64,000 nt of DNA, from NCBI RefSeq assembly GCF_964204865.1, contig NC_135252.1, forward strand, positions 1,550,001 to 1,614,000. Direction: 5' to 3'. Made by a program: the position numbers. Each line of letters opens with the position of its first letter. Positions within the stretch are counted from its first letter, which is position 1. The stretch is from Styela clava. Its lineage: Eukaryota. Positions 30,001 through 64,000 of the stretch are shown here, one piece after another.

Positions 30001-33000
30001 AATAACTCATAACTTTGCTGAGATGTAAGTCCTCTGTACATTCACTGAGCAAATACCATAAAAAAGCGATTTCTATATATATATGCAAAGTGCTTCCTTC
30101 CATTGTGTTCTTTGGTTGGGCCAATTTGGTGATTTGGATTGATTTGATTTTATCAAGAACTTTTTCACCATTAATTCTTTTCTGCGTGTTTCATATGTAG
30201 GGGAAAACGGAACCTCATCGCTTTTTCTACCTGTCAATGACGCGAAGGCACGTTGCGGGAATCGGAACTTTTGCTTGTTTTTTTTTGGATATGTGGTAAA
30301 AAGATACGACCTTATAAAAACCTATTTTCTGTTACGACTCCACGTTGTACGCCACAGGTTGCATCATGAATTTTGGTTTTTACAAAATGAGATACTTCTA
30401 TTGCGTTATATTTTCTGCCTTGGTATGTTTTGGAGAATCTTTTGTGCCATTAGAAGAAGGTATGGTATGTATAATTTCATATGCTGTAATTGTTGAAGGC
30501 AAAAACAGTCTGAACACGTGAAGAAACTTTCTTGTTCCATTCATATTTGAAGTTCGCCCAATAAGAAATTAAATGCAGTTATCTATGTATAGTTGTTGAA
30601 TATTTCAGTATGGAAGCTGTGGTCAGTCTGTATCTCAACAATCTATACTTCAGGTTGCCGCATAATGATGGTATCACACGTAAGCAAGTGGTCCTTACTA
30701 AAGGAGAATCTTTGAAATTGGAATTTATTCCATCTGCTGGATCCTGGTCTTATATTCAATGGTAGCATTTTCATTACTTGGTGATGTTAAGCATTTACAT
30801 AAACATACATGTTTTGCTATAACAGTTTCGGGTTCGATCAGGATCAGTGTGCTTCAGAGCAGGGGTCCGCAAATACAGGGTCGCAGCTAGGGCTGGGCAT
30901 ATTCCAATACCTGATGATTTCAGAATCAAATCGAATACTTTTTTCGAATCGAATCTCGAATACTTGGGAGATATGATTGTATGCGATTTTTTTATTGTAA
31001 TTGGTCCTTTCAAAATATGAATTACTGAAAACGTAGAATACATCACTCAGACAGATTGCTGAGCGTTTAAATACAATAAGAAACACGTTTTATCAATAAC
31101 TCACTACAGAAAATAGTCATATGTCAGAAATGCATTGAAAAAATATGGTCCCGATAAAAGTAAATTAAGGTATTCATGTCGACCATTGGCGGTAAAAAAA
31201 ACAATATGGCGGCGATTCGAGATACTGCTCTGAACCGATTCGAATAATTCACTTTTTCCGTGGATCCGAATATTTCAAGAGTGGAGTAGGTAGTGTTTAT
31301 TTCGATTTTCCGTTACAAAAAAAGAAACAAATATACGAAAAATTAGGAAATTGGGCAAAATCTAAAAAAGATTTAAGACGTGCTGATGCACGTGCCCACT
31401 TACCCCAAACAGCAAACAACACAATTGAAGTAAGTTTAAAATAAATACTCAGAATTTAATCCGGTCGTAAATACTTGGGAGTGGATGTGGAATTTGAACA
31501 TAGACTGCAGTTTCTACTATATCTGCACAAGAAAATAACGAGAAGTGTAGAATACAGCAAATAAACAAGCGGTGCGCAATATGTGATAATTAATGTGATT
31601 ATGTGATTACAAAAGCATTCCGCGCTCTGTCGTTCCAACTTCAGTTTTAATCAAAATCCGTGTGCTTTGTGTATTGTGTCTTTTTTATGGAACCCATCAT
31701 CAAATATCCGTTACATTTGATGTTTGACTGTTCATGTTATCCTCAGCTTCGATCAGGTTTCCATGATAAACTTCAGCCATGCTAAAAGCCAGCATGATCT
31801 GATGCGAACTGATCCATATCGTATCGGTACTGCATCTGAAGAAGAACATAGGCTATATACTGTAATTTCGTGTTTTTTCTGATAATTGTTTTTATAGGTG
31901 CCCGTGCACAGAATTCACCAATCACCAGCATTGTTTTGATTTAGGTTTGTAATATCTTCTCAGGAGGATTTATATTTGTCTGGTTTTCCAATAGAAAATC
32001 GCCGTTTCAATGCAACCGGATGGGCGGATGGGCGAATTTCCTCGTTTTCGCGTGCTATTTGTTAGTTTTTAGCTGTGTTTTGGTAAATATACATCTGAAT
32101 CAAATAACTCAATGATCATTTTGTCTTCGTAGAAGTTTTATTTCAATTGCAGTAAACAAAAATTAATCTAGAAATAGCTGTGATGGAATAGGCTAAACTT
32201 TTGTACCGGTACATTCAAATGAAAGGTTGTTGAATTTTTTTAGTCAAAATGATGGTTTGAAACATATAAACGGTTTATAGGCGCCGACTCGTAAAACCAC
32301 TCATGAAATAAGTACCAACAATTTTGCACAGGTAAAGTATATAGGAAAGATTTCCCGGGGATCGAAATTCGAGGAAACTTCCATTACGTAGTTGTTTGCA
32401 TTGTTATTATCCTACTACGTAGTCAATTGTATTGTTCCGTAGCAATGCGAGGTTAGCAGTGGCTGTGTGGAATTGCTTGATAAGACAGATGATGAGATTT
32501 CATGTGCTAAGTTTCATAAAATTTTGTGCAGTAAAATTGCTAGTGTCAATAATAGTCTTAAAATCAATAACTAATTACATGCTTACCAAATGCGTGGGTC
32601 GCGAGAAATTAGGAAAAAAAAAAAAATTGGGGTTGCGCCAAAAAGTAGTTGCGGACCCCTGCTTTAGAGAAACTATTATGATGCCTAAACATAACTATGA
32701 CTTACACCGAAGAAACTTGATATACGATATTAGTATTATATTATTTATATTTTATACTATATTCAGGATAAAACTCCATGAAGAAGGACAACAATTTAAG
32801 CATCTAATTATTCCCGCTAACCAAGCGTTCAACAATGGAAGCGCAGTGATATCTTCAATAGTTTTAGAGAGTGTGACTGGGAGCGATACAGCAAATTACA
32901 GCTGCATTTTAACAACTGCTCTAGTCACTTCATCCACGGAGTTTTTCGCGGCTGTAAAAGGTGAGTTCTGAAACTGTGATGACATATTTAATTTACAAGC

Positions 33001-63000: not shown

Positions 63001-64000
63001 AATCTAGATATCTATCAGAAAATAACAGTTTTGCAGATATAAATGCGAATGTGATGACGAATACACTGGGGAAGAATGTGGCATATTGGATACATGTTTT
63101 GATAGACCATGCCTAAATAATGGATCATGCATGATCACAGACTACGGATTCAACTGCTCTTGTTCAGAAGGTAGAATTTATCATTTCAATTTTTGGACCA
63201 ATGTCATTGTTTGCAGTTTTCATAAAACGACTGTGAATTTTTGTTTTACAAATATTTCACCTCGAAATTAACCCAGGTCACATTGACATATTTGTGCAAC
63301 CTCAAGACGGCACAGCATATTTTAGAACTGATTTTTAAACAAACCCATATTATCAATAGCTTCAGATATTTAATTTTTTTAAACACGATTTGACTGCACG
63401 TTTCCAAAATCATGAGGGGATCAAATCCACCAATCGCCTGCATTCAAATCGCAAACTTGTATTAAAAACTTGATTAATAATGTGTGTGCTGCTTTTCTCT
63501 GTAAATTAGCGGTATTATGAGCAAGCCGTTTTGTTGCATGGTTTTTTGCTGATTTGCCCTCAAAGTTACAATACTTTTGAAAATCACAATGGATTGATTT
63601 AGATTATATTAGAGGTTATATATACGCTTTCAAATTTACAATATTTTTGAAAATCACAATAGATTGATTTAGATTATATTAGAGGTTATATATACGCCTT
63701 CAAAGTTACAATATTTTTGAAAATCACAATAGATTGATTTAGATTATATTAGAGATTATATCTACGTATATTGAGGAAAGTAATGTTGTTTTATGTATTT
63801 ATTTCATTAAAATTGTTATACGATTGATCGACTAATGCCTGATTGGAATTTAAAAAAGACTCTTGTTTCTGCTGAAAACGACTGTTCCATCATATAATCG
63901 ATCTCAATTGCTTAGACTTTGTATTTCCAGTAAATACGAAAATGAAATATAATGAATATATGATAAAGAAAATAGTGAAACCCATATTTACTGGATAGGA

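What the first reader, a model, noticed from the sequence alone, without database searches (positions are those of the whole stretch)
30387..64000. Birth-and-death tandem array of an unusual signal-Ig-6xEGF-ZP secreted protein
Seen: four head-to-tail copies in different states (a 5' relic, two full-length, one running off the window). The domain order is one Ig, six EGF, ZP-N/ZP-C, a Ser/Thr linker, an RMKR furin site and a short hydrophobic patch (GNTVYIYDV), with no transmembrane or GPI tail. Known: EGF+ZP occurs in uromodulin and VC70-type proteins, and most ZP proteins have a membrane anchor. Inference: an N-terminal Ig on an anchorless EGF-ZP polymer is an architecture I do not recognise as a named family; it may display a recognition domain on an extracellular filament.
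Basis: partly seen in the sequence, partly recalled or inferred. Interest (0 to 1): 0.7.

Follow-up and report, generated by a model that had tools for sequence, protein, structure and literature searches.

The report
Sea squirt Ig-EGF-ZP gene array
This is a tandem cluster of sea-squirt (Styela clava) genes for a secreted filament-forming protein that carries an antibody-like domain at its tip; it is an uncharacterised variant of the egg-coat protein type known from sea squirts, and two of the four copies seen here are broken.

Summary
The array is real. Window 29942-64000 holds four head-to-tail copies (period about 12.2-12.6 kb) of an 18-exon gene. The domain order is signal peptide, one V-type Ig, six EGF, ZP-N/ZP-C, Ser/Thr linker, RMKR, a short conserved patch, then stop. 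There is no membrane anchor.

The organism is Styela clava. Current RefSeq models match my exons exactly: LOC120341862 is copy 2, LOC144420887 is copy 3, and LOC144420886 ("uromodulin-like") is copy 4.

One correction to the finding. Both "full-length" copies share one frame break in the ZP-C exon E15 and end at a premature stop. RefSeq annotates them as truncated proteins of 591 and 586 aa that lack a Pfam ZP-C match. The intact gene (719 aa) is the copy that runs off the window.

Ig, EGF and ZP lie in one transcript in two unnamed relatives, each on an intron-free contig. Ciona and Phallusia have a colinear six-EGF+ZP protein without the Ig. The ZP module is closest to ZPD, uromodulin and GP2.

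I read it as a new Ig-tipped variant of the urochordate EGF-ZP (vitelline-coat type) proteins. The array evolves by unequal crossing-over and decay, and substitutions in EGF3-4 look diversifying. Function is untested.

The parts
29942..34239 (+). 5' relic copy. It has upstream homology from 29942, then E1 30387-30459, E3 30654-30761 (in-frame shortening that removes the first Ig Cys), E4 32767-32960 and E6 33431-33563 (frameshifted, with stops). E2 was not found, E5 is partial and E7-E18 are deleted. 33952-34239 matches the 3' spacer of copy 2.
36117..46264 (+). Copy 2 (RefSeq LOC120341862). It has 18 coding exons, all with AG/GT boundaries, and one frame break in E15. The RefSeq product P0193 (591 aa) ends at the premature stop.
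   Evidence: E2-E15 peptides are exact substrings of P0193, 14 of 18
36117..36189 (+). E1: start codon and signal peptide (hydrophobic core; highest Kyte-Doolittle 19-mer of the protein).
   Evidence: the cleavage site is inferred by eye, no predictor was run
36567..37047 (+). E3 and E4: a single V/I-type Ig domain split by one intron.
37140..41451 (+). E5-E10: six EGF-like repeats. EGF4 (E7 end and E8) is atypical and the most divergent between copies.
41853..42835 (+). E11-E13: ZP-N domain and the interdomain linker.
43138..44477 (+). E14-E17: ZP-C domain.
43631..43742 (+). E15 of copy 2. This ZP-C exon carries the conserved Cys-aromatic-Ala-Thr-Pro stretch. Its length is out of register with E16, so it is one frame break with a premature stop inside the exon.
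46097..46264 (+). E18: Ser/Thr-rich linker, RMKR (furin-type consensus), a conserved C-terminal patch (putative EHP) and the stop. There is no TM or GPI-type tail.
48742..58436 (+). Copy 3 (RefSeq LOC144420887). It has 18 exons of the same lengths as copy 2, the same frame break in E15 (56042-56153), and a GC donor at E4. The RefSeq product P0194 (586 aa) is truncated.
   Evidence: 15 of 18 exon peptides are exact substrings of P0194
60914..64000 (+). Copy 4, the 5' part (E1 60914 to E6 63170, then intron). It matches RefSeq LOC144420886 (P0192, 719 aa, intact Ig-6EGF-ZP) in 6 of 6 exons and runs off the window.
41208..51828 (+). Recent duplication block. It is repeated at 53623-64000 with 98.1% identity over the first 3.9 kb and 99.92% over the last 6.5 kb. 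This makes copy 3 a chimera, with a 5' half like copy 4 and a 3' half like copy 2.

Best explanation
The region is part of a tandem gene family on a 25.6-Mb Styela clava chromosome. The genes encode a secreted, anchorless ZP-module protein whose N-terminal arm is one V-type Ig followed by six EGF repeats.

Shown: the domain order, the exon structure, the copy states and the family's narrow range.

Inferred mechanism: the signal peptide sends the precursor into the secretory pathway. The ZP module folds with the C-terminal patch (the putative external hydrophobic patch) acting as the last ZP-C strand, which blocks assembly. Cleavage at RMKR by a furin-type convertase frees that patch, and the subunit joins a head-to-tail ZP filament as uromodulin and egg-coat ZP proteins do. 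The Ig-EGF arm then projects from the filament as the ligand-binding part. Because there is no membrane anchor, the subunit probably has to be taken up into filaments seeded by anchored ZP partners.

The most likely site is the egg vitelline coat, because every characterised urochordate EGF+ZP protein is a coat component.

In this window only copy 4 is intact. Copies 2 and 3 share one frame break in ZP-C and the first copy is a relic. The array changes by unequal crossing-over. EGF3-4 shows an excess of amino-acid changes between copies.
For: Tandem structure. Exon model: independently matched by RefSeq proteins (14/18, 15/18 and 6/6 exon peptides are exact substrings).

ZP module: Pfam ZP-C 2.1e-17 in P0192. 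Profile against PDB sequences: ZPD egg-coat filament entry 28yj E=3.6e-11, then GP2 and uromodulin. Foldseek: UMOD filament 4.4e-14, then ZPD and ZP3.

Ig: AF2 core pLDDT 73-93. All 50 listed Foldseek hits are Ig-type domains, best CD96 D1 with TMt 0.73 and rmsd 1.9. Cys, Trp and Cys are invariant in 4 of 4 sequences. Ig_3 reaches 32.3 bits, above the 30-bit cut-off, in relative P0011.

Six EGF: 36 Cys with conserved spacing in 3 of 3 proteins.

One transcript: P0004 and P0011 sit on contigs of 2207 and 2298 bp.

No anchor. A C-terminal patch is conserved in 5 of 5 sequences that reach the end.

Mechanism: PMC7737619 (passages). Urochordate coat proteins are EGF+ZP: PMC9265791, PMC8849226 and PMC3543715 (passages).

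Copy 2 against copy 3: E8 has 16 nonsynonymous and 0 synonymous changes (Fisher p=0.022). In the other 5' exons pN is 0.042 and pS is 0.144.
Against: I have no expression or proteomic data for any copy. None of the 30 clusters I looked up by name is a described vitelline-coat protein.

Beyond ascidians the nearest ZP modules include non-egg proteins (uromodulin, GP2, DMBT1-like) as well as ZPD.

The full-length AF2 model is weak (mean pLDDT 55.5, pTM 0.27). Its C-terminus, which includes the putative EHP, has pLDDT below 50, so the EHP assignment rests on position and conservation only.

In cell culture, uromodulin cut off just after its EHP is secreted but does not polymerise (PMC7737619). 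An anchorless subunit may therefore not assemble on its own.

The substitution contrast rests on two sequences and small counts (E7+E8 p=0.055).

The Pfam Ig hit in the S. clava proteins is below the gathering score.
Confidence: 0.55

Rival explanations
1. Uromodulin/GP2-like epithelial or mucosal filament. The intact proteins are secreted by gut, endostyle or epidermal epithelium. They form or decorate ZP filaments that bind microbes or particles through the Ig-EGF arm, and play no part in fertilisation.
For: RefSeq names one isoform 'uromodulin-like'. The best PDB structural match is the uromodulin filament. Outside ascidians, several of the nearest ZP relatives are named uromodulin-like, GP2-like or DMBT1-like. 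A V-type Ig at the tip would suit a binding role.
Against: The best PDB sequence match is an egg-coat ZPD filament entry. There is no D8C domain and no GPI signal. All characterised urochordate EGF+ZP proteins are coat proteins (PMC9265791, passages).
Confidence: 0.2
2. Copies 2 and 3 are not dead. They are expressed as truncated Ig-6EGF-ZP-N proteins that act as soluble binders or as filament end-caps.
For: RefSeq annotates both as protein-coding (P0193, P0194). All other exons and splice sites are intact. The Ig exons E3+E4 show purifying change between copies 2 and 3 (pN 0.030 against pS 0.120, p=0.006).
Against: The stop lies three exons upstream of the last exon. The products lack half of ZP-C and the C-terminal patch. 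Uromodulin truncated before its EHP is not secreted (PMC7737619). P0193 has no signal peptide, because its first exon comes from the relic. The break is shared through a very recent duplication, so intact flanking exons are expected in any case.
Confidence: 0.1
3. Copy 3 is an assembly artefact, for example two haplotypes laid in tandem, so the true array has one fewer copy.
For: Identity is 99.92% over 6.5 kb between 45348-51828 and 57520-64000. An older RefSeq protein of LOC120341862 (P0001) joins copy-2-type exons E8-E12 to an intact 3' end. This suggests the locus was assembled differently before.
Against: The adjoining 3.9 kb is only 98.1% identical and has a length difference of about 230 bp. 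Copy 3 differs from copy 2 in E10 and E13, and differs from the copy-4 protein in E11 and E15-E18. The current annotation keeps three separate loci.
Confidence: 0.1

Closest known systems
Ascidian vitelline-coat EGF+ZP proteins (Halocynthia HrVC120/HrVC70, HrVLP-1 with 5 EGF + ZP, HrVLP-2, Ciona CiVC57)
   Same: Both have a signal peptide, tandem EGF-like repeats, then a C-terminal ZP module. Both occur in urochordates. HrVC70 shows variation concentrated in its EGF repeats (PMC9265791, passages), and here the amino-acid changes cluster in EGF3-4.
   Different: None of those proteins is described with an N-terminal Ig. HrVC120 and CiVC57 are described as transmembrane (PMC4523013 and PMC9265791, passages), whereas this protein has no anchor. 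I could not compare sequences, because no tool returned those proteins by name. Orthology, for example to HrVLP-1, is therefore untested.
Ciona intestinalis LOC100182658 and Phallusia mammillata 'protein eyes shut-like' (P0016, P0015)
   Same: These are the nearest named relatives of the ZP module (E=2.1e-21 and 7.7e-24). They have six EGF repeats plus ZP, colinear with the Styela protein.
   Different: They have no Ig domain. The N-terminus goes from the signal peptide straight into EGF1, and the family's Ig profile does not hit them. Identity is about 30%.
Uromodulin / GP2 / ZPD (vertebrate ZP-module filament proteins)
   Same: The ZP-N and ZP-C folds and sequences match best here. Both have EGF repeats N-terminal to the ZP module. 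Both have a cleavage site followed by a hydrophobic patch.
   Different: This protein has no D8C domain and no GPI anchor, and it has a furin-type site. Hepsin is the protease shown for uromodulin (PMC7737619). It also has an Ig at the tip.
Anchorless egg-coat ZP proteins (amphioxus BbZP2-5)
   Same: Both have a signal peptide and a ZP module without a transmembrane domain (PMC3543715, passage).
   Different: The amphioxus proteins carry LDLa and vWFA domains and have no EGF or Ig.

Membership tests
ZP-module proteins | ZP-N domain with its conserved cysteines | tested here: met
   Pfam ZP-N scores E=0.0025 on exon 41759-42061, a partial match below the cut-off. The profile aligns to PDB ZPD/uromodulin over profile positions 12-257. 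Cys columns are conserved in at least 90% of 90 relatives.
ZP-module proteins | ZP-C domain (Pfam PF00100 above the gathering score) | tested here: met
   P0192 (copy 4) scores 63.9 bits and P0003 62.3 bits against a cut-off of 24.6. The feature is not met by the products of copies 2 and 3, P0193 and P0194, which have no ZP-C hit.
ZP-module proteins | Cleavage site followed by an external hydrophobic patch that is the last ZP-C strand | tested here: inconclusive
   RMKR and a conserved patch are present. The AF2 model has pLDDT below 50 in this stretch.
ZP-module proteins | Assembly into filaments | not testable with these tools
   This needs protein work or imaging.
Urochordate vitelline-coat EGF+ZP proteins | Signal peptide + EGF repeats + C-terminal ZP | tested here: met
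Urochordate vitelline-coat EGF+ZP proteins | Presence in the vitelline coat or ovarian expression | not testable with these tools
   No expression data are available here. The LOC identifiers occur in 0 papers of the library.
Urochordate vitelline-coat EGF+ZP proteins | Sequence orthology to HrVC120, HrVLP-1/-2 or CiVC57 | not tested
   None of the 30 clusters I looked up carries those names. The primary papers (PMC2666592, PMC524827) are not held.
Uromodulin family | D8C domain and GPI anchor | tested here: not met
   There is no D8C_UMOD hit in P0003 or P0192, although 3 of 90 ZP relatives have one. There is no hydrophobic C-terminal tail.
Immunoglobulin superfamily domain | Two-sheet beta sandwich with a Cys-Trp-Cys core | tested here: met
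   The AF2 model has nine strands. Foldseek hits are all Ig domains. C59, W73 and C119 are invariant. All ten listed Atlas clusters are Ig.
Immunoglobulin superfamily domain | Pfam Ig model above the gathering score | tested here: inconclusive
   S. clava proteins score 22.2-26.4 bits against a cut-off of 30. Relative P0011 scores 32.3 bits, above the cut-off. No hit appears exon by exon.

The most novel reading that the evidence does not exclude
This is a stolidobranch-specific, Ig-tipped egg-coat filament protein that serves as a variable sperm receptor or self/non-self determinant. Unequal crossing-over among tandem paralogues, together with diversifying change in EGF3-4, generates and reshuffles specificities. 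Broken copies are the by-products of that turnover.
Probability: 0.15. Interest if true: 0.7.

Novelty: new variant of a known kind. Interest (0 to 1): 0.45.

Why it matters
Ascidian egg coats are built from EGF+ZP proteins, and one of them (HrVC70) is a candidate for self/non-self recognition at fertilisation. An Ig domain added to the tip of such a subunit would give Styela clava, a widespread invasive species, a new candidate gamete-recognition or binding molecule. So would the tandem array with its recent duplication, decay and locally accelerated amino-acid change.

The protein also ends just after the putative hydrophobic patch. That makes it a natural counterpart of the uromodulin construct cut off just after its EHP, which is secreted but does not polymerise. 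It could therefore show how anchorless ZP subunits are incorporated into filaments.

For annotation, the result shows that two of the RefSeq 'protein-coding' loci here are truncated by a shared frame break.

Tried and rejected
(1) Exon-by-exon Pfam did not detect the Ig, which is split over two exons. I settled the Ig on database models and a structure model instead.

(2) My first EGF regular expression merged repeats and found only 3 matches in each of the 5 proteins. I replaced it with Cys counts and spacing.

(3) I thought the protein might be the Styela orthologue of HrVLP-1 (5 EGF + ZP, 90 kDa). This could not be tested, because no tool returned a protein of that name and the primary papers are not held.

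(4) I looked for a splice rescue of E15. I enumerated 22 boundary pairs that keep the frame. Only one retains the homologous exon through the conserved Cys, and it needs a weak GTCCTG donor and drops the conserved strand that follows. I rejected it as the normal form.

(5) I tried to identify the second V-set-bearing protein among the 90 ZP relatives. My guess P0087 was wrong; it is an SRCR protein, DMBT1. That protein remains unidentified, so at least one other Ig+ZP combination exists among the relatives.

(6) The whole-protein ESM Atlas search gave nothing at 0.9 or above.

(7) Rfam and tRNA scans of the window found nothing.

(8) The LOC identifiers occur in 0 papers, and 'ZP domain' + 'Ig domain' + EGF + ascidian occur together in 0 papers.

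(9) I did not use genome contigs, because it holds only bacteria and archaea.
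Full report
**What the window is.** The window is eukaryotic DNA with 30-39% G+C and no N. Exon peptides from the region find Styela clava RefSeq proteins at 94-100% identity. I never assembled the window's exons into one sequence. Whole-protein tests were run on database models that the tools returned.

**The repeat.** Self-BLASTN shows a head-to-tail repeat from 29942 to the end of the window.
- The start codons of successive copies lie at 30387, 36117, 48742 and 60914. 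The last two intervals are 12,625 and 12,172 bases.
- Identity between units is 73-86% in the 5' halves of copies 2 and 3.
- It is 98.1% for 41208-45119 against 53623-57530.
- It is 99.92% for 45348-51828 against 57520-64000.

**Gene structure.** I guided the model with tblastn of the RefSeq model P0003 and by reading the splice sites. Copy 2 has 18 coding exons between 36117 and 46264, with AG/GT at all 17 introns. Copy 3 has the same 18 exons with identical lengths, and its E4 donor is GC in the context AAG|GCGAGT. Copy 4 shows E1-E6 before the window ends.

The relic keeps E1, E3, E4 and E6. Its E3 is six bases shorter and loses the first Ig cysteine. Its E6 is frameshifted and has stops. 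E2 was not found, E5 is partial and E7-E18 are deleted. The sequence after intron 6 continues directly into the 3' spacer.

The model is independently confirmed by the newest RefSeq proteins on the same 25,587,678-bp chromosome, which contain my exon peptides as exact substrings:

| Window copy | RefSeq protein | Locus | Exon peptides matched |
|---|---|---|---|
| Copy 2 | P0193 | LOC120341862 | E2-E15, 14 of 18 |
| Copy 3 | P0194 | LOC144420887 | E1-E15, 15 of 18 |
| Copy 4 | P0192 | LOC144420886 | E1-E6, 6 of 6 |

**Domain order.**
- *Exon by exon.* Pfam gave EGF-family hits in 4 of 20 exon ORFs, ZP-N in one (E=0.0025), a weak ZP-C in one (E=0.16) and no Ig.
- *Whole database models.* On P0192, ZP-C scores 2.1e-17, several EGF families hit, and Ig_3 scores 1.4e-4. 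That Ig score is 22.8 bits, below the 30-bit cut-off.
- *Ig fold.* An AF2 model of the Ig-only RefSeq protein P0002 has a nine-strand core with pLDDT 73-93. All 50 listed Foldseek matches are Ig-type domains, led by CD96 D1 with TMt 0.73 and rmsd 1.9. All 23 weak PDB sequence hits are Ig-superfamily proteins, best E=0.014. The Cys, Trp and Cys of the Ig core are invariant in 4 of 4 family sequences.
- *EGF.* Between the Ig and the ZP module there are 36 cysteines in six units. The spacing is the same in the Styela protein and in two relatives.
- *C-terminus.* E18 encodes a Ser/Thr-rich stretch, RMKR, and a terminal patch followed by the stop.
- *Hydrophobicity.* The only strongly hydrophobic 19-residue window is the N-terminal signal. 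Nothing in the last 120 residues exceeds 0.01 on the Kyte-Doolittle scale. There is therefore no transmembrane or GPI-type tail.

**The correction.** Exon E15 is the ZP-C exon that carries the conserved Cys-aromatic-Ala-Thr-Pro stretch. It lies at 43631-43742 in copy 2 and 56042-56153 in copy 3, and the two are 100% identical. Its length does not fit the phase that E14 delivers and E16 requires, and the in-phase reading meets a stop inside the exon.

P0001, P0003, P0012, P0004, P0011 and P0192 all have a longer, in-frame version of this stretch. RefSeq's own proteins for copies 2 and 3 end at that stop, at 591 and 586 aa, and have lost the Pfam ZP-C match.

I enumerated 22 alternative boundary pairs that would keep the frame. 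Only one retains the homologous exon through the conserved Cys, and it needs a weak donor and removes the next conserved strand.

Each of the two 'full-length' copies therefore carries one shared frame break. The intact gene of this window is copy 4, whose product is 719 aa. P0193 also starts in the relic's E6 and lacks a signal peptide.

**How the array changes.** The block 41208-51828 is repeated at 53623-64000.
- Copy 3 shares its E1-E10 peptides with the copy-4 protein.
- Copy 3 shares its E11, E12 and E14-E18 peptides with copy 2.
- This is the pattern expected from unequal crossing-over between two neighbouring copies near E10. That event also duplicated the broken E15.
- An older RefSeq protein of LOC120341862 (P0001) combines copy-2-type E8-E12 with an intact 3' end. 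Either the break is not present in every haplotype, or an earlier assembly merged copies. I cannot tell which.
- More divergent members lie elsewhere on the same chromosome and are not encoded in the window: LOC120343009, LOC120343010, LOC120342818 and a 'crumbs homolog 1-like' fragment.

**Substitution pattern between copies 2 and 3 (Nei-Gojobori counts per exon, summed).**

| Exons | Result |
|---|---|
| E8 (EGF4) | 16 nonsynonymous, 0 synonymous; Fisher p=0.022 |
| E7+E8 | pN 0.125, pS 0.039; p=0.055 |
| Other 5' exons (E1-E6, E9) | pN 0.042, pS 0.144 |
| Ig exons E3+E4 | pN 0.030, pS 0.120 |

The contrast in nonsynonymous:synonymous counts between E7+E8 and the other 5' exons has p=1.2e-4. 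This suggests diversifying change in EGF3-4 on a constrained background. It rests on two sequences and small counts.

**Relatives.**
- A whole-length word-index search with P0003 returned 9 proteins among 4555 candidates. Only three span the ZP part: P0003 itself, P0001, and the unnamed P0004 (37% identity over 683 columns). The other six are EGF-only proteins such as fibropellin and jagged-2.
- A profile of the ZP module against 1.84 billion representatives gave 250 proteins at E<=0.001, 19 at <=1e-10 and 4 at <=1e-30. Those four are P0001, the unnamed P0011, and two fragments of S. clava LOC120342818.
- P0004 (684 aa) and P0011 (673 aa) lie on contigs of 2207 and 2298 bases. These are too short to hold introns. 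Both encode the Ig, six EGF and the ZP module colinearly, and P0011's Ig_3 hit passes the Pfam cut-off.
- Next come Phallusia (E=7.7e-24) and Ciona LOC100182658 (E=2.1e-21), both auto-named 'eyes shut-like'. They have the same six EGF plus ZP but no Ig. An HMM of the family's Ig hits only P0011 among 181 stored relatives.
- Further out are uromodulin-like, GP2-like, DMBT1-like and cnidarian ZP proteins.
- I scanned 90 of the 149 listed relatives in Pfam. I dropped those over 1300 aa and stopped at the tool's residue limit. Of the 90, 86 have ZP-C, 70 have ZP-N, 12 have CUB and 7 have SRCR. V-set occurs in 2: one is P0011 and the other I could not identify.

**Structure of the ZP part.** The profile matches PDB sequences of the ZPD egg-coat filament entry 28yj (3.6e-11), GP2 and uromodulin. 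The full-length AF2 model is weak overall (pLDDT 55.5, pTM 0.27), but its Ig, EGF, ZP-N and ZP-C segments reach 60-85. Foldseek places it with the uromodulin filament (4.4e-14), ZPD, ZP3 and Notch EGF arrays. Single-domain chains reach TMt 0.55-0.67.

**Mechanism.** From PMC7737619 (passages):
- In uromodulin and in mammalian egg-coat proteins this depends on membrane anchoring.
- Uromodulin cut off after the patch is secreted but does not polymerise. Uromodulin cut off before the patch is not secreted.

The Styela protein ends just after its putative patch. I therefore infer that it is a soluble precursor, processed at RMKR, which needs anchored partners or a distant assembly site. I also infer that the truncated products of copies 2 and 3 are unlikely to be secreted. 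The patch is conserved in 5 of 5 sequences that reach the C-terminus, but it is not resolved in the model.

**Placement.** The evidence here comes from passages read.
- Reviews describe ascidian vitelline-coat proteins as EGF+ZP proteins. HrVC120 has 12-13 EGF + ZP. HrVLP-1 has 5 EGF + ZP. HrVLP-2 has 1 EGF + ZP. CiVC57 has vWF + 24 EGF + ZP + TM. Eleven ZP proteins are reported in the Ciona coat. HrVC70 is polymorphic in its EGF repeats (PMC9265791, PMC8849226).
- PMC3543715 states that EGF domains are frequent in urochordate ZP proteins, and that 4 of 5 amphioxus coat ZPs lack a TM domain.
- PMC4523013 calls HrVC120 transmembrane.
- None of these passages mentions an Ig on a ZP protein.
- Two full-text searches for the combination in ascidians gave 0 and 9 papers. 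Of the 9, I read passages from the two that mention ZP proteins of ascidians (PMC4523013 and PMC9265791); neither describes the combination.
- The LOC identifiers occur in 0 papers.

I therefore file this as a new Ig-bearing variant of the urochordate EGF-ZP class. Its function is inferred and not shown.

**What stayed unchecked.**
- No eukaryotic genome collection was available, so copy 4 beyond 64000 and other tunicate genomes were not examined at the DNA level.
I could not see whether the Ciona relative is one of the eleven coat proteins.

Noticed in passing
window 1-822, 2845-3928, 10225-10818: An intron-free 321-aa short-chain dehydrogenase ORF lies on the minus strand at 2845-3810 (adh_short E=2.5e-42). 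Partial paralogous copies lie at 1-822 (83.8% to 3095-3928) and around 10251-10679 (adh_short E=1.5e-12, a broken ORF). This is a second small tandem family upstream of the array.
   Followed up: partly
window 13676-13957 (+): A 93-aa ORF with a short Gly-X-Y run gives a weak Pfam Collagen hit (E=0.0015, below the cut-off). It may be an exon of a collagen-tailed gene.
   Followed up: no
window 22519-22686; 46959-47122; 59131-59294: A repeat of about 168 bp is present once upstream and, inverted, once in each spacer after copies 2 and 3 (81.9% identity). It is probably a short dispersed repeat.
   Followed up: no
window 33455-33562 and 36397: The current RefSeq protein of LOC120341862 (P0193) starts in the relic's frameshifted exon 6 and continues with copy 2's exon 2, skipping copy 2's own signal-peptide exon. 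This could be read-through transcription from the relic or a model artefact.
   Followed up: partly
window 50118/50119 and 62290/62291: Exon 4 of copies 3 and 4 uses a GC donor (AAG|GCGAGT). Copy 2 and the relic have GT at the same site.
   Followed up: partly
window 45120-45347: Copy 2's intron 17 holds about 230 bp that are missing at the matching place of copy 3, between the 98.1% and the 99.92% identity blocks. Two ORFs nearby (44971-45237, 45247-45405) have no significant Pfam match; the only hit is Heliorhodopsin at E=0.13.
   Followed up: no
P0003 residues 236-242 and 272-278 (EGF2, EGF3; window E6 and E7): C-x4-[ST]-C motifs lie between the second and third Cys of EGF2 and EGF3. They fit the O-fucosylation consensus quoted for HrVC70 in PMC9265791, and EGF3 fits the stricter C-x-x-G-G-S-C form. 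The same review links fucosylated coat proteins to sperm alpha-L-fucosidase.
   Followed up: partly
alignment A4 (90 ZP relatives): One further ZP-module protein among the 90 nearest relatives has a strong V-set Ig hit (best E=2.9e-13). I could not tell which one it is. Ig+ZP therefore occurs at least once more outside this family.
   Followed up: partly
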